Positions 9,956 through 64,000 of a stretch of DNA of 64,000 bases are shown here, one piece after another; position 1 is the first letter of the stretch; every line of letters begins with the position of its first letter. The position numbers were made by a program, and so were the translations under genes. Below the pieces are notes generated by a model, which was given only the letters and a program-made list of their open reading frames with translations, was not told the DNA's origin and made no database searches. Location: contig NZ_PTQW01000032.1 in assembly GCF_004343725.1 (NCBI RefSeq), positions 9,287 to 73,286 of the forward strand, given 5' to 3'. Source of the stretch: Treponema sp. J25. GTDB lineage: Bacteria; Spirochaetota; Spirochaetia; Treponematales; Breznakiellaceae.

Positions 9956-10054
9956 CTTGATTCTAGCCTATCATGCAACCCCAAGGAATGCAAGTTTTAT
10001 TCATTAAAAAAGTCAATCAGAATATACCGCTTATACAGAAGGAGTCCACAAAGA

Positions 10055-10306
10055 TTTCACAAGTTATCCACAATTTATGTTACACTTTTTTGTCCGGACT
10101 GGAGATTTTTTAGAAAATAGGAAAAATATACTTTTCTTTTTTTAAGTCACCAAACACCATCTTCTTATTTTATTTCATTTTTATACAAATAATTATAAAT
10201 ATTTAAAAAAAGCTATGTATACTTTTATTCCATAAAAGTGTATACAAAGATATACGGAAAGAAACTGTTTCTCTTATTTCACAAATTATCCACAATTTGT
10301 TCACAT
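10055..10306. promoter_or_regulatory. AT-rich ~400-bp intergenic region with two ~30-bp direct repeats, each made of three T(T/C)CACA(A/T) units at 11-bp periodicity
   Basis: Repeat 1 is TTTCACAAGTTATCCACAATTTATGTTACAC and repeat 2 is TTTCACAAATTATCCACAATTTGTTCACAT (10277-10306); they are 222 bp apart. Each contains a perfect TTATCCACA 9-mer (10064-10072 and 10286-10294). GTATAC palindromes lie between them. Confidence 0.6.
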
Positions 10307-10357
10307 TTAGAAATGTTAGATACATCACACAGAGACATTAAACTTCTCACAGAATCA

Positions 10358-11032
10358 CTAGAACTTTTCTTCCGCCCGAGGTTCCTGATATTCTAACTGA
10401 TACCCTGTTCCTCGTACAGCACGAATAGTTACCTGCCCCTGAAACAAACAAACCAATGCTATTTTTTTCCGGAGTCGGCTGATATACACATCTACAATTC
10501 TACTTTGTCTGTGGCTCTCGTCGCTTAGCTCTTTATACACATGCCCTCGAACGAGTATACGGGATGGATTATGGAGGAAATGGGTCATAATCATAACCTC
10601 AAAAGGATTAAGATACACCTTTCCTGCCGGTCCTATGAGGAAACATCGGTCTAACCATACAGGGCTATGAGAAGGCGGTTCCTTTTGAACCTTTTCTAAT
10701 TCCTTGAAAGCATAGACTAAGCGGCTATCAAATTCTTTCGCGTTAAAAGGAAAAGAAAGATGATCCAAGGCCCCTGCTTTAAAGGCCCGAGAGATATATT
10801 CTACCTTGCCAAAGGTGATAAACGGAACAGAGAGATGGACCTTCCCAAACGAACCCACCTCTTCAAATGGAACAAGAAATAGACAATCCTTTACGAAGGA
10901 GCTTTTACCTTCTGTATCTTCGGCAGGCAACCAACGACAGACCCGATAGAGACCCTTTCTCCGCCGTATCCACTCTTCTATCACCGGAGAAACACGAAAA
11001 AGGTAAAGGGTCTTTTCCGAGCCCGCGCTCAT
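10358..11032 (-). CDS. Atypical OmpR/PhoB-family regulator: C-terminal winged-helix trans_reg_C domain and an aspartate-less receiver-like N-terminus
   Basis: The C-terminus (…VYISRLRKKI…IRAVRGTGYQLEY) matches the OmpR wHTH. The N-terminal region keeps the receiver-like K…PF element (KAGALDHLSFPF) but lacks the acidic pocket and the phospho-acceptor Asp (CLFLVPFEE). Confidence 0.55.
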   Translation of the reverse strand: MSAGSEKTLYLFRVSPVIEEWIRRRKGLYRVCRWLPAEDTEGKSSFVKDCLFLVPFEEVGSFGKVHLSVPFITFGKVEYISRAFKAGALDHLSFPFNAKEFDSRLVYAFKELEKVQKEPPSHSPVWLDRCFLIGPAGKVYLNPFEVMIMTHFLHNPSRILVRGHVYKELSDESHRQSRIVDVYISRLRKKIALVCLFQGQVTIRAVRGTGYQLEYQEPRAEEKF

Positions 11033-11055
11033 TATTCGATTATTACATACCTACC

Positions 11056-11760
11056 TTATTTTTCTTGTTTGGTTCCATCCGGCAGGGCCTGCATTTTCTG
11101 CTTCAATTCTTCCAGCATCAAATCCGCCGAGGCAGAGGATTTCTCTAGTTCCGCAAAACGCTTCTCAAGGCTTGCATTTTTAGAAAGGTCCTCCAGTTCT
11201 TTTGCCGCATCGGCCTCTGCCTCTAATTGATCCACCTTTTGGGCCATTCGATCAAAGGCTTCGAAGGCACTGGTATTACCCGTCACATTGGAGATGGTCT
11301 TCTGGATCTTCTGCTGCGCCTCAGCCCGCTTAGCCCGGGCAATCAGCAGGTTCTTCTTACGCTGGGCCTCTTCTATCTTCGTCTGCAGTTCCTTAAGGGA
11401 TTCCTTCAGTTTTTCCACCGCCGCTTTTTGGGCTTCCCACTGTTTTTTATATTCGACGTAGTTATTTTCATGCTCCTGCTTTCTGAGGAGGGCTTCCTTT
11501 GCAAGATCGTCCTGCCCGGCCCGGACCGCCAGCATAGCCTTCCTCTCCCATTCCTGGGCCTGGGCTTGCTGGTTCAACATTTCCCGTTCGAGCTTTTTTT
11601 CATCCGCAATAGCCAGGGCAACCCCTTTCTTTGCTTCGATTAACTGCTCATTCATATCGATGATCAGCTGATTCAGCATTTTCTCGGGGTTCTCAGCCTT
11701 ATTGATCATATCATTTACATTTGAAGCAATGAGGGTTTTTAAGCGAGAAAAAATACCCAT
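11056..11760 (-). CDS. pspA: PspA/IM30 family protein (phage-shock protein A / Vipp1-like)
   Basis: N-terminus MGIFSRLKTLIASNVNDMINKAENPEKMLNQLIIDM is canonical for PspA/IM30, and the protein is coiled-coil rich throughout. Confidence 0.85.
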   Translation of the reverse strand: MGIFSRLKTLIASNVNDMINKAENPEKMLNQLIIDMNEQLIEAKKGVALAIADEKKLEREMLNQQAQAQEWERKAMLAVRAGQDDLAKEALLRKQEHENNYVEYKKQWEAQKAAVEKLKESLKELQTKIEEAQRKKNLLIARAKRAEAQQKIQKTISNVTGNTSAFEAFDRMAQKVDQLEAEADAAKELEDLSKNASLEKRFAELEKSSASADLMLEELKQKMQALPDGTKQEK

Positions 11761-56703: not shown

Positions 56704-56736
56704 TGACAATTGTACTATTGTTATAGTACAATGTCA
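56704..56736. promoter_or_regulatory. Near-perfect 33-bp palindrome TGACAATTGTACTAT-TGT-TATAGTACAATGTCA abutting the GntR gene start; candidate operator
   Basis: Read directly from the sequence. GntR operators are typically (T)GT-N-AC(A)-containing palindromes. Confidence 0.5.
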
Positions 56737-57030
56737 AGACAAAACAGGAAATTTCCCCGTGAAATAGGTGCGAAGCATGTACCGGTTACCGAGAAGCAGG
56801 TGAGGCGAATCATGGTTCGGACCAAATTACAAGCGATTTTCCCAGGTCGGAATCTGTCAAAGGCCCGACAGGAGCATAAAAAGTATCCGTATCTTCTTGC
56901 TGGCAATAAAATACGATATCCGAATCAGGTGTGGGCAACTGATCTGACCTATATCAAGCTGCCTTCGGGTCATGTCTATTTGATGGCAATCATTGTGGAC
57001 CTGCCCCGGTATAGTGGAGAGGTAGTTAAG
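56710..57030 (+). mobile_element. IS3-family transposase OrfB internal fragment (remnant A), truncated at both ends
   Basis: …VTEKQVRRIMVRTKLQAIF…KYPYLLAGNKIRYPNQVWATDLTYIKLPSGHVYLMAIIVD… is a typical IS3 OrfB N-terminal region. It is cut off at ~57026 exactly where the minus-strand copy ends. Confidence 0.7.
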
Positions 57031-57545
57031 CCTCTTTTCGTGCAACCATCGCGGGAGCTTTGTAGCCGTTCCGCGAATACAGCCTGATCCGATTATAGTA
57101 CACCTCGATGTATTCGAACACCGCCGACTTGACGTTCCGGCGGGATTTCCATCCGTCCAGTTCTTCCACTTCCCGTTTCAACGTCTTGAAAAAGGATTCC
57201 GCACAGGCATTGTCCTAGAGTTGCCCTTTCGCGACATGCTCCTGACCAGCATCGGAAGTGCCGCCGTCGAGGCTTCGCAAAATGCCGCCCCGCAGTGCAG
57301 GAAGGTTTGCGGCCGTTCCCTGCGTAGTACCCCGATGCGCTGACGGTAAGAACCTTTGCCATCTTCCCAATCGACCAACGATTCCGGTGGGCGTCCATGA
57401 ACCGAAAACTCATCTCTGTTTTCCGTTCACCGAGAAGATGGCTACCGCTTTTTTTAGTATTTCATTCGCCTCGCGGAGGTCCTCAACCTCGCGTAAGAGT
57501 CTGGTTATACTGAGCCCAGGTTGAAAGACCAAGGACGCGCAAGAA
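57026..57545 (-). mobile_element. IS3-family remnant B (minus strand): OrfA C-terminus, A7G slippery site, and OrfB disrupted by a frameshift and stop
   Basis: Minus-strand translation gives …LREVEDLREANEILKKAVAIFS… across CTAAAAAAAG, and …MDAHRNRWSIGKMAKVLTVSASGYY…ESFFKTLKREVEELDGWKSRRNVKSAVFEYIEVYYNRIRLYSRNGYKAPAMVARKEA* ending at 57026-28, with an internal TAG/frame break near 57215. Confidence 0.7.
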
Positions 57546-57552
57546 CTAAGGT

Positions 57553-58330
57553 GTGAATCGCCTCCTTGAGAGACAGGAGGAAGGAGGCGTAGAATCAGCC
57601 ATGCGCAAGCACTACGACAAAGAGTTCAAGGCCAAAGTAGCCTTGGATGCGGTACGGAGTGAGAAAACGATCCAGGAGATCGCGAAGGCCTTCGCGGTTC
57701 ATCCGAACCTCGTGAGCCTTTGGAAAAGACAGTTGCTCGAGAACGCGGGCAAGCTCTTTGAATAAAGAAGGGAAGGACAAGACAGCGGAAGAGGCCGAGC
57801 GGAAACAGGACCAGCTGTACAGGCAGATCGGTCAGCTCCAGGTGGAGAACGAGTTTCTAAAAAAAAGTACAGGCAACTGTACGGGACCGAGCCCAAGTTG
57901 TAGAGCCGGATGATCCGGAGCTTTCGATTCGGAGACAGTGCGAGCTTCTATCGATCAGCCGGACGGCCTACTACTACAAGCCGAAGAAGGAGGAGGAAAC
58001 CGAGGATCCCGAGCTGGGCATACTGCTCGCGATTCTGGACGAACTGCGGGAGCATCCCTTCTACGGGTACCGGAAGGTCGCCCTGGCGGTTTCGTACCTC
58101 GTGGTAAGCAGGAAACAGGTCCGCAGGATCATGGGAAAGACAGGCTGAGGACTATGTACCCTGGGGAACAGCTGTCCAAGCCGGACCGGAAGCATCCGAA
58201 GTATCCGTACCTGTTGAGGGGAAAGACGATCTGGATGCCCAATCAGGTATGGGCCTCCGAGATGAACCCCAATGAACCGGAGAAACACGGAGGGCCTCTT
58301 TACCCTGGACCGCAGGCTAAAACTGGTGCT
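57553..58330 (+). mobile_element. IS3-family remnant C (plus strand): OrfA with a frameshift, poly-A slippery site, and a 5' part of OrfB with a further frameshift, 3'-truncated
   Basis: MRKHYDKEFKAKVALDAVRSEKTIQEIAKAFAVHPNLVSLWKRQLLENAGKLFE*. The next frame gives …EEAERKQDQLYRQIGQLQVENEFLKKS…, then …RQCELLSISRTAYYYKP…GYRKVALAV…, then …KYPYLLRGKTIWMPNQVWASEM, after which homology is lost. Confidence 0.7.
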
Positions 58331-58344
58331 AACGTAAGGGGGCT

Positions 58345-59085
58345 CTAATCTACTACTTTTTCGTATTCGATGCTGACTATTTGAATGCCCGGCGTAGTGC
58401 AGATTATTTTATAATATTTGCTATAGCCCTTTTCAGCAAAAACAAGACCGAAATATTCCGCATTGGGCTGAAGGTCTACACTATAGAAAAGATTTTTTTC
58501 AAGTACATCGAGCCATTGTTTTCCCCTTTGGGCGTATTGGGAGACTGCCTCGAAATTTCTTTGTCTTGCCAGTTCTGCTGCTGTAGGGTCATAATAACTG
58601 GTTGAGCTGCTGTAGATACCGGAAACAGAACCATATCGAGATCCGCCGTATATGGTTCCGGTAGTGGATGTGTAACCTCTGCCGGCATCTATAGAACTAG
58701 CTACAGCTCCCAGTGCAAGCAGCACTGCCCCTGCGGTATATTCTGCTTTTTCTTTTCTATAATATTCTTCCGATGTATAAACCTTAAGTTTTTTCCAGTT
58801 TACCCTATCGTCGCTTTCATAAACAGAAAAATGGGTATCTGTAAATGAAATTGTTTTTCCTGAATAATTTTTTATTGCAATTTTTATCATTAAATCCTCA
58901 TCAACATAGACAGGATAGATGATCATACCAATATTTTGGTCGGTATAAACAGGGTAGTAAGCAGATCTTTCCTGAATAACCTGAATCTGATCATTTTGAA
59001 TGGGTACAAAATGGTATGTTGCGCATGAAATTACAGAAAGTACCAGTAATAACAAAATGCTCATCCTGCAGTAATGATTTTTCAC
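58345..59085 (-). CDS. Hypothetical lipoprotein, AT-rich gene with a Tyr/Ser/Gly-rich segment
   Basis: Signal sequence plus lipobox-like …LLLVLSVISC; composition visibly lower in GC than its neighbours. It is the second gene of the σ54-promoter-driven unit. Confidence 0.5.
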   Translation of the reverse strand: MKNHYCRMSILLLLVLSVISCATYHFVPIQNDQIQVIQERSAYYPVYTDQNIGMIIYPVYVDEDLMIKIAIKNYSGKTISFTDTHFSVYESDDRVNWKKLKVYTSEEYYRKEKAEYTAGAVLLALGAVASSIDAGRGYTSTTGTIYGGSRYGSVSGIYSSSTSYYDPTAAELARQRNFEAVSQYAQRGKQWLDVLEKNLFYSVDLQPNAEYFGLVFAEKGYSKYYKIICTTPGIQIVSIEYEKVVD

Positions 59086-59758: not shown

Positions 59759-59794
59759 GTAACGATAGTTTCATAGTTACGGAACAAAAGTTAC
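59759..59794. repeat. 36-nt nested palindrome GTAACGATAGTTTCATAGTTACGGAACAAAAGTTAC (copy 1), ~95-120 bp upstream of the σ54 promoter; candidate enhancer (UAS) or CRISPR-repeat-like element
   Basis: Outer arms GTAAC/GTTAC and inner arms GTT(T/C)C/GGAAC. A second copy lies at 62647-62682 with 28 of 36 positions identical. Confidence 0.55.
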
Positions 59795-59885
59795 GAAGCA
59801 TTATGAAAACTAATCTTATAGGGGTGTCTAAAATAAAAAGAATGGTGGCTGCTGTGGCACCTGTAATTGGCATGTTTTATGCAGA

Positions 59886-61484
59886 TTGTCTGCCATGGAT
59901 TCTCATGATACTATGAAAGATATGGCAAAGACAGTCTCGGTTCTGGTGACCTTTATAGGAAATCGGGATCCCTATCCACAGGATGATGAAACTCCGGGGC
60001 CTATTCTATCCTTTTTATTGCAGCATCCGGTAGATATCGTTTATATGCTTTGCAGCAGCGCTGCCTACCATGAGCGAGCCCAAGATTTAATAAGAGAAGC
60101 TAAAGATGAAGGATTGGTCACCAAATTCGAAACGGTAGATTTTTATGTTCCCGATGTGGTCGATTACGGAATAATCTGGGAACGGTTGCTCATGAGTCTT
60201 ACGGATATACAACAGCGTGTTCATGAACATCTTCCAGTACGGATAAGTGTAGAATGGCTTTTTTTACTGGACTCCGGAACCCCGCAGATGAAATCCTGCC
60301 TTTTTCTTGCTGCCGCGACACAACAATTTCCGGCTCGTCTTTACCAGGGCATTCCGCCAGCCTTCTCCGGTGGAGCCTATAAGAGCCGCCAAGTAAACAT
60401 AGAACCTTTTTCTTTTATGCGGCCTGCATTCATTGTGGAAGGGAAGGTTCCAAATGTATATGAGGCTGATATAGGAGCGAATACAAATACCACTGGGAGT
60501 AATGCTCCCAAATATCGGGAAGCAGAAGAACGGGCATTGCGTATTGCCCGATATGAAGACCCGGTACTGCTTTTAGGCGAGACCGGTACAGGAAAAACCA
60601 GAATAGCCCGTCAGATACATGATGCGAGTCCCCGGAAAAGCGGGCCATTTGTAGAAGTAAATTGTTCAGCTATTCCGCGGGATCTAGCAGAAAGCGAACT
60701 TTTTGGTCATGTCCAGGGAGCCTTTACCGGAGCCAATAAAAATCGAAGCGGCAAAATCCGGGCTGCTCAAGGGGGGACCCTGTTCCTTGACGAAATCGGA
60801 GACCTGCCGCTGGAACTGCAGGTTAAGCTCCTTAAGGTGTTGGAAGAACACACCCTGTATCCAGTTGGCTCCGATGAACCTGTTACGGTTAATGTCCGGC
60901 TTATCGCGGCAACCCACCGGGATTTAGAACACATGGTAAAAGATGGCAGTTTTCGTAAGGACTTGTACCAGCGCCTTAAGGTTGTTGTCATTCGGCTTCC
61001 GCCTCTGCGGGACCGCAAAGAAGATATTTTACCTCTGGCTGACTATTTCCTTGATGAACGGAACCGTAAATATGGGGAACATAAGGAGCTTTCTGAGGCA
61101 GTAAAAAGCCGTTTGCTTGAATACTCGTGGCCCGGAAATGTCCGGGAATTGCGGAATACGATAGACAGCGCCTGTTCCATATCCCAGAAGGAGCTCATCG
61201 AGCTGGATGTATTGCCCGAAGAATTACAAGCTGGCACCTGGAGTAAGTATGGAATGCACGGCGCGTCTGGTGATATGCCGGGGGAGATCCTGCCTCCGGA
61301 AGGCTTGGATCTGCGGGCCCGACTGCTCCAAATGGAATGGAGTTATGTAGCGGCGGCTTTGCGCAGAACCGGAGGTAACCGGGAAGCGGCGGCAAAACTT
61401 TTGGGCATGACTGGTCATGCGTTTCGCAAGGCCCTACGGGAACGGCTTGCCGGTTTTTTCGAAAACGAATGGGAAGGAGAATAA
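59886..61484 (+). CDS. RtcR-family σ54-dependent transcriptional activator: N-terminal CARF domain, σ54-interaction AAA+ domain, C-terminal HTH
   Basis: AAA+ motifs [14 protein letters not shown] loop, …LFLDEIGDL…. The N-terminus (…[10 protein letters not shown]…[28 protein letters not shown]…) aligns in my recall with the E. coli RtcR CARF region (…HITTGTHVAQICWFLLAEARYLPARLIQ…). At 532 aa it matches RtcR in length. The exact start is uncertain (Met at 59886, 59895 or 59922). Confidence 0.8.
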
Positions 61485-61485
61485 G

Positions 61486-62628
61486 ATGCCGGAACGACAG
61501 GTACTCATTTGTACGGTAGGAACCAGTCTTTTTTCTGGGAATCTGGAACGGCTTCCCTTCGAAAGAGACAATCCCCCGAATTGGGAGAACCTTAAAAGGA
61601 CATATCAAGAAAAAAATTGGAGGGCCCTCGCAAGAGAATTAGCGTGCCTTCCGCCAGATAGCCGGGTCTGTGGTGCAGAAATTAATACCATCCACGAACT
61701 TATTACCCAAAAAGGACTTCCTTTGAGGGCCATCCATTTTCTTGTCTCGGATACGCCGGCAGGAGAAGAAACAGGAAAGGTACTTCAATATTACTTTAAA
61801 AATCATTCTTCCCATCATTTTAGTGTCGTAGAATATCACCGAATCGAAAAATTACAGGACCAACATCCTCAGGATTTTAAAGTGTATGGGTTACGTAACC
61901 TGGCCCGGGAAATTGGCACTATCATTCAGCGGATAGGTGGCCCCGAAAAGGTGCTTATCGATGCCACCGGTGGTTACAAGGCCCAAATTGCCATTGGATT
62001 GCTTATCGGCCAGGTGCTCAATATTCCGGTCATGTATAAACATGAACGGTTTTCTCAGATTATCGATTTTCCCCCTTTGCCGGTTTCTTTTGATTACAGC
62101 CTTTTTGGAACCTATGCGGGGCTTTTGCACTATCTTGAAAAAGGTATTGTCACGGTAGATTCGGAAGAACTAGATCTAACCGAAGAGGATGAAAAACTCC
62201 GGGTCCTCCTGGAAGAAACAGATGTGGGGAACAGACGACTTTTTGCCTTAAGCCCCATTGGTCAAATATACCTTCTTGGATACCGATTACACCATCAACG
62301 GGAAGTAACAGAACTGGCTTCAGCTCAAAATAAAGAGGTGCCCCACTTTTCGGATGACCACTATCCCGAAGGTTTTAAGGACTATGTGAAAAAGATTTGG
62401 AGAGAAGTCCCCTGGATTGTAACCATAAAAAGCCTTCCTTATTACCAACAACGGTCCATTAAAGGGAGGGGTTTTACGGTACGAGAAATAGAAGGGCAGC
62501 TTCGACTGGTTGGCACCTATCGGGATAGAAACGACTTCGGAGCCCGCTTTGAGATTATTCCCACCGATACTTCCCGGGAAGCCCTTATATACGCGGTGGA
62601 ACTGTTAAATGAAAGATACGGAGATTAA
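61486..62628 (+). CDS. CARF-domain protein (Csx1/Csm6/Csa3-like sensor domain) with a non-HEPN C-terminal region (wHTH-like segment plus ~100 aa unknown)
   Basis: CARF signatures …VLICTVGTS… and …VLIDATGGYK…. The ATG at 61486 is preceded by a GGAAGGAG ribosome-binding site and begins 1 nt after the activator stop codon. No Rx4-6H motif is present in the C-terminal half. Confidence 0.7.
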   Translation: MPERQVLICTVGTSLFSGNLERLPFERDNPPNWENLKRTYQEKNWRALARELACLPPDSRVCGAEINTIHELITQKGLPLRAIHFLVSDTPAGEETGKVLQYYFKNHSSHHFSVVEYHRIEKLQDQHPQDFKVYGLRNLAREIGTIIQRIGGPEKVLIDATGGYKAQIAIGLLIGQVLNIPVMYKHERFSQIIDFPPLPVSFDYSLFGTYAGLLHYLEKGIVTVDSEELDLTEEDEKLRVLLEETDVGNRRLFALSPIGQIYLLGYRLHHQREVTELASAQNKEVPHFSDDHYPEGFKDYVKKIWREVPWIVTIKSLPYYQQRSIKGRGFTVREIEGQLRLVGTYRDRNDFGARFEIIPTDTSREALIYAVELLNERYGD

Positions 62629-62646: not shown

Positions 62647-62688
62647 GTAACAAAAGTTCCATAACGACGGAACAAAGGTTACTTTTTT
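62647..62688 (+). terminator. Copy 2 of the 36-nt nested palindrome (GTAACAAAAGTTCCATAACGACGGAACAAAGGTTAC) followed by TTTTTT; likely intrinsic terminator and/or protein-binding site
   Basis: Lies 19 nt after the CARF gene stop, with a T-run directly 3' of the stem. Confidence 0.5.
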
Positions 62689-62907
62689 AAGCACCCCTAT
62701 TTTAGGAACGCCGGGTTGAATTTCCGTGTTTGAGTCGCCTACAGCCGGACTACCGTTCCAAAGTTCCTACAGGGAAGTGGTTTTTTCTTCTCGTATAAAT
62801 AAGAGGATGTTAGTAGTATGGCGGATAGAGTTTTTAGAGATATTAGAGATTATAGAAATATCAAGTCATTTAACCATTTCTAATATAAGAAATTAAACAC
62901 AAAAACA

Positions 62908-62937
62908 TTGACAATTTTTAAATCTCAGAAGTATCAT
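62908..62937 (+). promoter_or_regulatory. Candidate σ70-type promoter upstream of cas6 (TTGACA-18 nt-TATCAT)
   Basis: Sequence match only. The 18-nt spacer and the closeness of the -10 to the AGGAG ribosome-binding site make it uncertain. Confidence 0.3.
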
Positions 62938-62950
62938 AGGAGTAACTATC

Positions 62951-63874
62951 ATGGGCCATCAGCTTACCAGCCTTTCACTCAATTGTACTATCACTTTTCA
63001 GAAAGCCGTTAGAGTAGATACCTATCCACCCTTTGTTATCCGAAGTGTGTTGGGCTACCATCTTAAACGAATGCACTGTGTAAGCCACCAGACCCCCTGT
63101 CAGGACTGCGTTTTCCGGCGCACCTGTGCCTATGTGTTTTTGTTCGAGAGTATTATCGACAAGGATACCCCGGTTTTAGAGGGCCGCGATCGAGCAAGTC
63201 ATCCCTTTAGGCTCATTGCCCACACTGAACCGGGTAGGGAGGCACGGGAACTTCCCTTAACGGTTCAGCTATTTGGTCGAGGGGTGGAATATGTGCCCCA
63301 CGTGGTCTTTGCATTACGGGAAGGAGGGAAAGGGGGACTTTTTCGGGAGCGGGTCCCCTACAAAATCAGCGTGAACAATGTAAAGGGAGAGGCAATTCTT
63401 GAAGGGGACCGGCTCGTGCAGTCCCGTCTGAGCACTGAGCGGTATAGCTATCCGGACGGCGACGAGATGGAAAGCCGAACGCTTCATATTTACTGTCACA
63501 GTCCCCTGCGTTTTAAGGTGAATAATCGCCTAACCAGCGATTTTTCTGGTCGGGACCTGATAGCCGCCACGAGCCGGCATCTGGACACGCTGTTTTTTCT
63601 TTATGGGAATGGCACAGAATTTGCAAAAGAAATACAAAACCAAAAGTGGGAGGGAGAAGTAAAAATAACCCATCGGGACCTGGCATGGCGGGATTACCCG
63701 CGGTTCTCCCGCCGCCAGGGAACTCCGATGAAACTGGGCGGCCACGTGGGACGCCTTACCCTAAGTGGAAGCGCCCCCCGCTGGGTCTGGGAAACCCTGC
63801 ACCTGGCAGGCCGCATCGGCACCGGCAAAAACACAAGCTTCGGCTTTGGCCATATCGAAGTAACGGAGGAGTGA
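62951..63874 (+). CDS. cas6: CRISPR-associated endoribonuclease Cas6
   Basis: Duplicated ferredoxin-like (RAMP) organisation with the C-terminal glycine-rich loop GRIGTGKNTSFGFGHIE characteristic of Cas6; length 307 aa. Confidence 0.7.
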   Translation: MGHQLTSLSLNCTITFQKAVRVDTYPPFVIRSVLGYHLKRMHCVSHQTPCQDCVFRRTCAYVFLFESIIDKDTPVLEGRDRASHPFRLIAHTEPGREARELPLTVQLFGRGVEYVPHVVFALREGGKGGLFRERVPYKISVNNVKGEAILEGDRLVQSRLSTERYSYPDGDEMESRTLHIYCHSPLRFKVNNRLTSDFSGRDLIAATSRHLDTLFFLYGNGTEFAKEIQNQKWEGEVKITHRDLAWRDYPRFSRRQGTPMKLGGHVGRLTLSGSAPRWVWETLHLAGRIGTGKNTSFGFGHIEVTEE

Positions 63875-63881
63875 GGGGAAG

Positions 63882-63995
63882 ATGGAATTTTATATTGAAC
63901 GTTATAAAAACAGAGAAGAACTTGTATTTGATTGTGAAGTCATTACACCAATGTTTTTATCCGGTGCGGACCCTAAAACATATAATGAGCCCTAG
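63882..63995 (+). CDS. Start of a RAMP-superfamily (Cmr1/Cas7-like) gene; very AT-rich and terminated by an in-frame TAG after 37 codons within the window (fragment or pseudogene?)
   Basis: MEFYIERYKNREELVFDCEVITPMFLSGADPKTYNEP*. The motif ITP-F-GGADP resembles RAMP N-terminal motifs. The window ends at 64000. Confidence 0.3.
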   Translation: MEFYIERYKNREELVFDCEVITPMFLSGADPKTYNEP

Positions 63996-64000
63996 AAACT

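What the first reader, a model, noticed from the sequence alone, without database searches (positions are those of the whole stretch)
61486..62628. CARF protein with an unrecognised C-terminal output domain (no HEPN Rx4-6H motif)
The N-terminal ~200 aa carry CARF hallmarks (…CTVGTS…, …DATGGYK…), but the C-terminal ~180 aa has no HEPN motif. Instead it shows a wHTH-like stretch (…LTEEDEKLRVLLEE…RRLFALSPIGQIYLLGY…) and a further ~100-aa domain. It may be a Csa3-like transcription factor with an extra domain, or a new CARF effector type.
Basis: partly seen in the sequence, partly recalled or inferred. Interest (0 to 1): 0.68.

Follow-up and report, generated by a model that had tools for sequence, protein, structure and literature searches.

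The report
Cami1-like CRISPR sensor, uncharacterised output domain
This gene encodes a type III CRISPR accessory protein whose signal-sensing front two-thirds matches the known Cami1 and Crn1 proteins, but whose conserved ~110-residue tail matches no known effector or solved fold; the family is already listed in catalogues but nobody has tested what it does.

Summary

- **Domains:** CARF (res 1-200), a wHTH-like domain (205-270), a conserved linker (271-296), and an alpha-beta4-alpha C-terminal domain (297-380). There is no R-x4-6-H motif.
- **Sensor part:** CARF plus wHTH is homologous to Cami1-type CARF-RelE proteins and Crn1 ring nucleases (hhalign probability 100%; Cami1 8PHB is the top Foldseek hit).
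- **Family link:** the C-terminal domain is a distant homolog (hhalign 98.1%, 12% identity) of the C-terminal domain in the catalogued but uncharacterised CARF7--CARF_DUF2103 family.
- **Context:** the family is widespread (366 loci among GTDB species genomes) and sits in type III-A and III-B loci. Here cas6 follows it directly.

Best reading: a cA4 sensor that probably also cleaves cA4, and that carries an output domain of unknown chemistry. It is a known unknown, not a new class. The Csa3-like reading is not supported.

The parts
61486..62628 (+). Gene for the 380-aa CARF7-wHTH-'DUF2103-like' protein (stop 62626-62628). It is identical to Treponema sp. J25 WP_165910490.1.
   Evidence: ORF list; 100% identical hit P0001; full-length alignment with 96 homologs.
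61472..61479 (+). Shine-Dalgarno-like GGAAGGAG, 6 nt upstream of the ATG. The upstream gene's stop is at 61482-61484, so the two genes are probably translationally coupled in one operon.
   Evidence: Sequence read.
61486..62085 (+). CARF domain (residues 1-200). It carries the invariant motifs T10-V-G-T-S14 and T161-G-G-Y-K165, which occupy the motif positions of the Ser/Lys pair needed for ring-nuclease activity in Crn1 (Sis0811 S12/K169).
   Evidence: Pfam Cas_APE2256 E 1.3e-32; PADLOC CARF7 models; invariant columns; hhalign against the CARF-RelE family aligns both motifs; Cami1 alignment; catalytic residues from PMC9638899.
62098..62295 (+). wHTH-like domain (residues 205-270: helix, helix, beta-hairpin, helix). 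It is homologous to the HTH domain of Cami1 and of the large Crn1 ring nucleases.
   Evidence: AF2 secondary structure; phmmer alignment to Cami1 8phb over residues 122-261; Foldseek hits 8phb, 3qyf, 7pq3; hhalign probability 100% through residue 268.
62296..62373 (+). Conserved linker (residues 271-296) containing R/K283, P286, F288, D291-H292-Y293-P294 and G296.
   Evidence: Conservation in 97 close homologs and in 51 diverse sequences.
62374..62625 (+). C-terminal alpha-beta4-alpha domain (residues 297-380) with conserved Y319, Q322, K326, R354, N375 and Y378. It has no known fold match and is a distant homolog of the C-terminal domain of CARF7--CARF_DUF2103 proteins.
59886..61484 (+). Context: the upstream gene, probably co-transcribed, encodes an RtcR-like CARF-AAA+ (sigma-54 activator)-Fis HTH protein. 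The start codon is uncertain; the profile match begins at residue 18.
   Evidence: PADLOC RtcR_PspF2--CARF_AAA_HTH E 4.8e-121; Pfam Sigma54_activat E 1.3e-66; HTH_8.
62951..63874 (+). Context: cas6 lies directly downstream. The same order (this gene, cas6, cas10, csm2-5, csx1, cas1, cas2) is found in the closest relatives.
   Evidence: PADLOC Cas6 E 2.2e-64; L083-L085 gene tables.

Best explanation
The gene encodes a type III CRISPR ancillary protein built on the same sensor chassis as Cami1 and the large Crn1 ring nucleases.

**Proposed mechanism**
1. When Cas10 detects target RNA it makes cyclic tetra-adenylate (cA4).
2. A dimer of the CARF7 domain binds cA4. This step is inferred from homology.
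3. The CARF domain probably also cleaves cA4 slowly, through the conserved Ser14/Lys165 pair, so the response limits itself. This step is also inferred.
4. The signal passes through the wHTH-like domain to a conserved C-terminal alpha-beta4-alpha domain, which sits where RelE sits in Cami1 and acts as the output.

**The output domain**
- It is not RelE, HEPN or PD-(D/E)xK.
- It belongs to the uncharacterised 'DUF2103-like' domain group.
- Its conserved polar residues are R/K283, H292, Y319, Q322, K326, R354, N375 and Y378. From the strand and helix order they should lie at one end of the domain.
- That arrangement fits a phosphate-handling site, so the most likely activity is metal-independent cleavage or binding of RNA or a nucleotide, which would slow the infected cell.

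**Shown versus inferred**
- Shown: the architecture, the homologies, the absence of any known effector fold, and the type III association.
- Inferred: cA4 binding, ring-nuclease activity, and the chemistry and toxicity of the output domain.
For: **Sensor chassis**
- Pfam Cas_APE2256 E 1.3e-32.
- The best PADLOC models are all CARF7.
- hhalign of residues 1-270 against the CARF-RelE family gives probability 100%, E 6.7e-43, with TVGTS and TGG[YF]K aligned.
- Cami1 8PHB/8PHJ are the top Foldseek hits (E 1.7e-14), followed by Crn1 SSO1393 and Sis0811.

**Output domain is a constrained module**
- 67 clusters among 1.84 billion representatives carry it. Most are 330-417 aa with the domain at the C-terminus; the rest are mainly fragments.
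- H292, Y319, Q322 and R354 are kept in at least 90% of 51 diverse sequences.
- Both AF2 models are confident (pLDDT 89.3 and 92.9).
- It is homologous to the C-terminal domain of PDLC01930-type proteins (hhalign 98.1%, E 1e-13, 99 columns).
- PMC12065111 reports a 'DUF2103-like' domain in the effector position of NsnC proteins of the Menshen system, alongside nuclease domains.

**Type III linkage**
- 34 of 51 loci of at least 12 kb carry Cas10 and Cmr/Csm genes.
- In L064 the gene directly follows cmr6, and none of the five large neighbours scanned matches any PADLOC model.
- cas6 follows the gene directly in the window and in L083-L085.
- No relatives were found on IMG/VR viral contigs.
Against: - CARF7 plus HTH alone is a dedicated ring nuclease in Crn1 (PMC9638899).
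- The gene usually sits beside a bona fide effector: Csx1 in L083/L085, a Can2-like CARF4-PD-(D/E)xK protein in L051, and a CARF8-TM protein in L033. That pattern is what an off-switch would show.
- The Menshen link is indirect. My exhaustive search with this subfamily's profile found no NsnC-like architecture.
Confidence: 0.45

Rival explanations
1. It is mainly a ring nuclease, a Crn1-like off-switch. The CARF7 domain degrades cA4 to reset other effectors in the locus (Csx1, Can2-like, Cam1-like). The C-terminal domain only modulates this, for example by oligomerisation, docking onto the Csm/Cmr complex, or binding the linear A2>P product.
For: - The Ser14/Lys165 motifs are invariant and sit in the motifs that carry the catalytic S12/K169 of Sis0811.
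- Crn1 structures are strong Foldseek hits.
- The gene co-occurs with several different cA4 effectors. PMC12409355 reports that Can1-2 and Cam1 loci usually carry ring nucleases.
Against: - Standalone Crn1 enzymes need no third domain.
- The extra domain and linker carry residues conserved as strongly as the CARF motifs.
- In L064 none of the large neighbours scanned is a known cOA effector that would need switching off.
- Cami1 shows that the same chassis can be ring nuclease and effector at once (PMC12409355, PMC11229360).
Confidence: 0.3
2. It is a cOA-responsive transcription regulator in the manner of Csa3. The wHTH binds DNA near the cas operon, and the C-terminal domain is a dimerisation or co-regulator module.
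For: - A wHTH-like domain is present.
- The gene sits at the head of the cas6-cas10 operon in the window and in L083-L085.
- Two 36-bp palindromes flank the two-gene module in the window.
Against: - The Csa3 model scores E 0.063, below its cut-off.
- The homologous HTH of Crn1 and Cami1 is not known to act as a transcription factor.
- The palindromes are absent from all 85 other loci, which carry this gene but not the RtcR-like activator. They are therefore more likely sites for that activator's Fis-type HTH.
- In many loci the gene lies at the 3' end of the cmr operon.
Confidence: 0.1
3. The C-terminal domain is a strongly diverged version of a well-known effector domain (RelE/BECR, HEPN or PD-(D/E)xK), so the protein is simply a divergent Cami1, Csx1 or Can2.
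For: - The overall architecture and length match Cami1, and the full-length Foldseek alignment to 8PHB spans about 410 columns.
- A PADLOC CARF_RelE model aligns as far as residue 331.
Against: - hhalign of the C-terminal profile (170 sequences) against the RelE domain profile (116 sequences) gives probability 0.5%. The N-terminal control gives 100%.
- There is no R-x4-6-H motif.
- The C-terminus alone hits no PADLOC or Pfam model, while a RelE control hits CARF_RelE at E 1.2e-47.
Confidence: 0.03

Closest known systems
Cami1 (CARF-RelE; PDB 8PHB apo, 8PHJ cA4-bound on the 70S ribosome)
   Same: - It has the same CARF7 plus wHTH sensor part: phmmer E 3.6e-7 over residues 122-261, top Foldseek hit at E 1.7e-14, and hhalign probability 100% against the CARF-RelE family.
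- It has a similar length, a three-domain layout and a type III association, and often co-occurs with Csx1 (PMC11229360).
   Different: - Ribosome-dependent mRNA cleavage therefore cannot be assumed.
Large standalone Crn1 ring nucleases (SSO1393, PDB 3QYF; Sis0811, PDB 7PQ3), CARF7 plus HTH
   Same: - It has the CARF7 fold plus an HTH domain (Foldseek E 9e-11 to 5e-9).
- The conserved GTS and GGxK motifs carry the Ser and Lys needed for cA4 cleavage.
   Different: - Crn1 proteins are about 270 aa and stop after the HTH.
- This protein adds a conserved linker and an ~85-residue folded domain.
CARF7--CARF_DUF2103 family (PADLOC PDLC01930; example Nostoc edaphicum pNe_2 WP_181927102.1)
   Same: - The full-length profile hit is E 5.5e-97.
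- The architecture is the same.
- The C-terminal domains are homologous at profile-profile level: 98.1%, E 1e-13, 99 columns.
- Both sit in type III loci.
   Different: - The C-terminal domains share only about 12% identity.
- The PADLOC model does not detect this protein's C-terminus alone, but it detects the Nostoc one at E 1.2e-17.
- tblastn to the Nostoc gene stops at residue 262.
- No function is known for either.
Csa3 (CARF plus wHTH transcription factor; PDB 2WTE)
   Same: It has a CARF domain followed by a winged-helix-type domain. The Foldseek hit is weak (E 4e-4).
   Different: - It belongs to a different CARF clade (TIGR01884 E 0.063).
- Csa3 has no third domain.
Csx1/Csm6 (CARF-HEPN RNases)
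   Same: It has a CARF sensor and a type III context. A real Csx1 is encoded in the same operon in the closest relatives.
   Different: It has no HEPN domain and no R-x4-6-H motif.

Membership tests
CARF superfamily, CARF7 clade | Rossmann-like CARF domain matched by CARF7 or Cas_APE2256 profiles | tested here: met
   Pfam PF09651 E 1.3e-32; TIGR02619 51.8 bits, above the 37.45 cut-off; the top PADLOC hits are all CARF7 models.
CARF superfamily, CARF7 clade | Conserved ligand-site motifs: G-T-S after strand 1 and T-G-G-x-K after strand 4 | tested here: met
   T10-V-G-T-S14 and T161-G-G-Y-K165 are invariant in 97 sequences. They align with the same motifs of the CARF-RelE family and of Cami1.
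Cami1 (CARF-RelE) | C-terminal RelE-family (BECR fold) nuclease domain | tested here: not met
   [not shown]
Cami1 (CARF-RelE) | cA4-activated, ribosome-dependent mRNA cleavage | not testable with these tools
   This needs biochemistry.
Crn1 ring nuclease (large, CARF7 plus HTH type) | CARF7 plus HTH fold with the catalytic Ser and Lys | tested here: met
   Foldseek 3qyf and 7pq3 at E 9e-11 to 5e-9; S14 and K165 are conserved; their roles are taken from PMC9638899.
Crn1 ring nuclease (large, CARF7 plus HTH type) | Standalone two-domain protein of about 270 aa | tested here: not met
   The protein is 380 aa, with a conserved third domain at residues 297-380.
Crn1 ring nuclease (large, CARF7 plus HTH type) | Cleavage of cA4 to A2>P | not testable with these tools
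   This needs an enzyme assay.
CARF7--CARF_DUF2103 (PADLOC PDLC01930) | Full-length match to the family profile | tested here: met
   E 5.5e-97, residues 4-378 on profile positions 2-352 of 353.
CARF7--CARF_DUF2103 (PADLOC PDLC01930) | C-terminal domain recognised by the family HMM on its own | tested here: not met
   The query C-terminus gives 0 hits at E up to 10. The Nostoc C-terminus hits profile positions 262-352 at E 1.2e-17.
CARF7--CARF_DUF2103 (PADLOC PDLC01930) | C-terminal domain homologous at profile-profile level | tested here: met
   hhalign of 170 against 119 sequences gives probability 98.1%, E 1e-13, 99 aligned columns.
Pfam DUF2103 (PF09876) | Match to the Pfam model | tested here: not met
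   No Pfam hit at E up to 10 for the query C-terminus or for 36 homologs. The Nostoc-type protein also shows only Cas_APE2256. A profile-profile test against PF09876 could not be run.
Csx1/Csm6 (CARF-HEPN) | HEPN domain with R-x4-6-H | tested here: not met
   No such motif in the protein. The Csm6/Csx1 profile hits cover only the CARF part.
Csa3 transcription factor | Match to the Csa3 family model (TIGR01884) | tested here: not met
   E 0.063, 12.6 bits against a cut-off of 60.2.
Can1/Can2/Card1 (CARF-PD-(D/E)xK) | Restriction-endonuclease-like nuclease domain | tested here: not met
   [not shown]

The most novel reading that the evidence does not exclude
The C-terminal 'DUF2103-like' domain is a new enzymatic effector fold. 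It would be a cA4-gated, metal-independent phosphodiesterase or RNA-targeting module that uses H292, Y319, Q322, K326 and R354. It might act as a dimer of half-sites, as the weak resemblance to single lobes of 2H phosphoesterases hints. That would make this family a further, mechanistically distinct class of type III CRISPR effector on the Cami1 chassis.
Probability: 0.3. Interest if true: 0.7.

Novelty: new member of a known kind. Interest (0 to 1): 0.45.

Why it matters
Type III CRISPR systems defend cells through a growing set of cOA-activated effectors, and each newly characterised output domain has revealed a new way of stopping an infected cell.

This family is widespread: 366 loci among 185,579 species-representative genomes, across many phyla. 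It is strongly conserved and sits on the well-understood Cami1/Crn1 sensor chassis. Its output domain matches nothing solved, so it is a clean, tractable candidate for a new effector chemistry.

There is also a practical point. HMM-based surveys that detect the CARF plus wHTH part may file these proteins as Cami1, Csm6 or ring nucleases, although the C-terminal domain is different. Current models do not see this subfamily's C-terminal domain at all.

Tried and rejected

- Fetching the rest of the Treponema contig by exact protein look-up failed. The 380-aa protein, the 403-aa form and Cas6 are not on record, so the genes beyond position 64000 were not seen.
- The afdb50 fold library was not available. 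The domain was therefore compared only with PDB structures.
- Makarova et al. 2020, the source of the CARF7/DUF2103 naming, is not held. What 'DUF2103' rests on could not be read, and PF09876 could not be compared profile-to-profile.
- Pfam, NCBIfam and PADLOC gave nothing for the C-terminus alone. The PDB sequence profile gave nothing.
- The scan of viral contigs found no relatives.
- No CRISPR array lies in the window.

**Ideas considered and rejected**
- *Single-sequence hhalign.* Against the Nostoc C-terminus it was negative. Only the profile-profile comparison, after building that family's alignment, revealed the homology.
- *Cas2 link.* P0181 has a Cas2-like N-terminus joined to this domain. 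It is a single 128-aa cluster, and its C-terminal half closely resembles the C-terminus of the full-length member P0151, so it is probably a chimera.

Full report
**1. The observation**

The ORF at 61486-62628 (+) is real and encodes 380 aa. A GGAAGGAG ribosome-binding site lies 6 nt upstream. The stop codon of the upstream gene (61482-61484) lies one base before the ATG, so the two genes are probably co-translated. A longer 403-aa reading from ATG 61417 exists and was deposited once (TCW60727.1). All homologs begin at the position of 61486, and RefSeq uses the 380-aa form, WP_165910490.1 of Treponema sp. J25, which is 100% identical.

**2. Anatomy**

An AlphaFold2 model built on 97 sequences is confident (pLDDT 89.3, pTM 0.87). 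It shows four parts:
- a CARF domain (residues 1-200);
- a helix-helix-hairpin-helix domain (205-270);
- an extended conserved linker (271-296);
- a compact domain of helix 297-307, four strands (311-316, 329-335, 338-346, 352-359) and helix 364-378.

A separate model of residues 272-380 gives the same fold at pLDDT 92.9.

**3. The sensor part**

- Pfam sees only Cas_APE2256 (E 1.3e-32). NCBIfam sees TIGR02619. All of the best PADLOC models are CARF7 models.
- The only solved relatives by sequence are 8PHB and 8PHJ, aligned over residues 122-261. The Foldseek table identifies these entries as Cami1.
- Foldseek with the full model ranks Cami1 first (E 1.7e-14). The CARF7 plus HTH ring nucleases SSO1393 and Sis0811 follow, and Csa3 appears only at E 4e-4.
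- I took a bona fide CARF7--CARF_RelE protein from the Allomeiothermus silvanus plasmid (PADLOC E 9.4e-183) and collected its family. The comparison with residues 1-270 of the present family gave hhalign probability 100%, E 6.7e-43, with TVGTS and TGG[YF]K in register.
- These motifs are invariant in the family. They sit in the motif positions of S12 and K169, the residues Sis0811 needs to cleave cA4 (PMC9638899).

CARF plus wHTH is therefore the Cami1/Crn1 chassis. Binding of cA4, and probably its cleavage, is the reasonable inference.

**4. The C-terminal domain**

This is the part the finding is about. No known family or fold matches it:
- Pfam gives nothing for the query or for 36 homologs, even at E 10.
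- PADLOC gives nothing for the C-terminus alone.
- A profile search of PDB sequences gives nothing.
- Foldseek against PDB has a best E of 0.16.
- No RelE/ParE, HEPN or PD-(D/E)xK structure appears in either list.
- The RelE domain profile of the Cami1-type family does not align with it (probability 0.5%), while the N-terminal control aligns at 100%.

**5. It is nevertheless catalogued**

The full-length protein hits PADLOC PDLC01930, 'CARF7--CARF_DUF2103', at E 5.5e-97. That score comes from the sensor part. The query's C-terminus alone does not hit the model, whereas the C-terminus of a Nostoc edaphicum plasmid protein (WP_181927102.1) hits profile positions 262-352 at E 1.2e-17.

I collected the Nostoc-type family and compared the C-terminal profiles. 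The result was hhalign probability 98.1%, E 1e-13, with 99 aligned columns at 12% identity. Across both subfamilies the aligned columns keep a basic residue at 283, P286, H292, F330, a basic residue at 354 and L374-N375, with an aromatic at or next to Y319. The Nostoc-type domain is likewise unrelated to RelE (0.1%).

The domain here is thus a divergent branch of the 'DUF2103-like' domain group. The literature I could read treats that group as uncharacterised:
- Domainator calls CARF7_DUF2103 'previously catalogued'.

I found no experimental study.

**6. Distribution and constraint**

- The word-indexed search found 1,610 relatives. The top 120 are full-length, 372-416 aa, and 49-91% identical.
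- A scan of one genome per species found 366 loci, in Spirochaetota, Cyanobacteria, Chloroflexota, Proteobacteria, Bacteroidota, Acidobacteriota, Verrucomicrobiota, Deinococcota and others.
- An exhaustive HMM search with the C-terminal profile over 1.84 billion representatives found only 67 clusters. Most are 330-417 aa with the domain at the C-terminus. The rest are mainly fragments, plus two long proteins with weak partial matches.
- The domain therefore lives essentially only on this chassis.
- In 51 diverse sequences, H292, F297, Y319, Q322, F330, R354 and L374 are kept in at least 90%. In the 97 closer sequences, K326, T344, D361, S363, N375 and Y378 are kept as well.
- From the order helix, up-down four-strand meander, helix, the following should all lie at the same end of the domain: the N-terminus of helix 1 (H292), the beta1-beta2 loop (Y319, Q322, K326), the start of beta4 (R354) and the C-terminus of helix 2 (N375, Y378). 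This is my inference from topology.
- Such a cluster of His, Tyr, Gln, Lys, Arg and Asn fits a phosphate-handling site.

**7. Genomic context**

I clustered the ORFs of the 80 fetched loci and annotated the commonest neighbours. They are Cas10/Cmr2, Cmr1, Cmr3-6, Cas10/Csm1, Csx1, a CARF3 protein and Cas1. Of 51 loci of at least 12 kb, 34 carry recognisable type III effector-complex genes.

- The closest relatives (59% and 54% identity) show the order: this gene, cas6, cas10/csm1, csm2-5, csx1, cas1, cas2, cas2. The window shows the start of the same order, this gene then cas6, before it ends.
- Elsewhere the gene sits next to a Can2-like CARF4-PD-(D/E)xK protein (L051) or a CARF8-TM protein (L033).
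- In L064 it directly follows cmr6, and none of the five large neighbours scanned matches any PADLOC model.
- No relatives occur on viral contigs.

Co-occurrence with several different cA4 effectors fits a ring nuclease. It also fits Cami1, which is both effector and ring nuclease and co-occurs with other effectors in about half of loci (PMC11229360, PMC12409355).

**8. Mechanism and rivals**

My best reading (confidence 0.45) is a Cami1-like, self-limiting cA4 sensor whose RelE slot is filled by a different, uncharacterised output domain, probably acting on RNA or a nucleotide.

| Reading | Confidence |
|---|---|
| Self-limiting cA4 sensor with an uncharacterised output domain | 0.45 |
| Mainly a Crn1-type ring nuclease with an accessory third domain | 0.30 |
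| Csa3-style transcription regulator | 0.10 |
| Diverged RelE, HEPN or PD-(D/E)xK effector | 0.03 |

- The Csa3-style role is weakly supported at best. The Csa3 model fails. The two palindromes near the gene occur only in this locus, which alone also encodes an RtcR-like activator.
- A hidden RelE, HEPN or PD-(D/E)xK domain is essentially excluded by the tests in section 4.

**9. Novelty and interest**

The protein is annotated ('putative CRISPR-associated protein', TIGR02619 family). Its architecture is catalogued, and its sensor part belongs to a well-studied clade. What is unknown is the activity of the output domain. What is new here is small:
- this subfamily's C-terminal domain escapes the existing HMMs;
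- it is linked to the catalogued domain only at profile-profile level;
- it is demonstrably not RelE;
- it has no match among solved structures.

I rate it a new member of a known kind, of moderate interest as an experimental target.

Noticed in passing
window 63610-63625 (+), inside cas6 (62951-63874); L083 11909-11924; L084 3624-3639: A perfect sigma-54 promoter consensus, TGGCACAGAATTTGCA, lies about 265 nt before the end of cas6 and points downstream. By my estimate an exact match would occur about 0.015 times by chance in the window. The same perfect consensus sits at the equivalent place in cas6 of the closest relative (L083/L084, which share one protein), about 270 nt before cas10. It overlaps the codons for G-T-x-F-A, so protein constraint may explain part of the conservation.
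   Followed up: partly
window 59759-59794 and 62647-62682: Two 36-bp palindromic sites (GTAAC-N5-TTNC-N8-GGAA-N5-GTTAC, 81% identical to each other) flank the two-gene module of RtcR-like gene plus this gene.
- They are the only two matches in the window (0.01 expected by chance), and there are none in 85 other loci.
- The first lies about 60-100 bp upstream of sigma-54-like sites at 59855-59883.
- They are probably binding sites for the sigma-54 activator encoded here.
   Followed up: partly
window 59886-61484 (+): An RtcR-like CARF-AAA+ (sigma-54 activator)-Fis HTH gene (PADLOC RtcR_PspF2, E 4.8e-121) sits directly upstream, with its stop codon one base before this gene's ATG. It did not cluster with any neighbour gene in the 80 related loci or appear in the three close-relative gene tables. 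My speculation is a cOA-responsive (or A2>P-responsive) transcriptional feed-forward onto the cas genes through the sigma-54 site in cas6.
   Followed up: partly
window 63882-63995 (+): After cas6 comes a 37-codon ORF, MEFYIERYKNREELVFDCEVITPMFLSGADPKTYNEP. To my eye its 'ITPMFLSGAD' looks like the start of a RAMP (Cmr1/Csm-type) protein. It ends in TAG 5 nt before the window ends. It could be a truncated or frameshifted RAMP gene, or simply a short ORF; this cannot be resolved without the downstream sequence. In the closest relatives cas10 follows cas6 here instead.
   Followed up: no
window 62900-62950: A sigma-70-type promoter candidate, TTGACA-N18-TATCAT, lies just upstream of cas6, read by eye from the intergenic sequence. 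cas6 may therefore have its own housekeeping promoter in addition to any sigma-54 control downstream.
   Followed up: no
window 56710-58348: Several short overlapping ORFs with transposase-like translations (for example ...YPNQVWATDLTYIKLP... and ...KHYDKEFKAKVALDAVRSEKTIQEIAKAFAVHPNLVSLWKRQLLE...) suggest broken IS copies about 1.5 kb upstream of the CRISPR-associated genes. This was read from the ORF list only and not checked with profiles.
   Followed up: no
protein P0181 (128 aa, from the representative library): One cluster joins a Cas2-like N-terminus (MRTTYLVCYDVRDDKRLRRVFKTCKDYGDHLQYSLFEGDL) to the last ~80 residues of this C-terminal domain. The C-terminal half closely resembles that of the full-length member P0151, so it is probably a rearrangement or an assembly chimera rather than a real architecture.
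   Followed up: partly
L004 4367-5656: In one Caldilineaceae locus a second, 429-aa ORF clustered with the target family by single linkage. It sits inside the cmr operon between cmr3 and cmr5, in addition to the normal copy at 9995-11119. It may be a clustering artefact.
   Followed up: no
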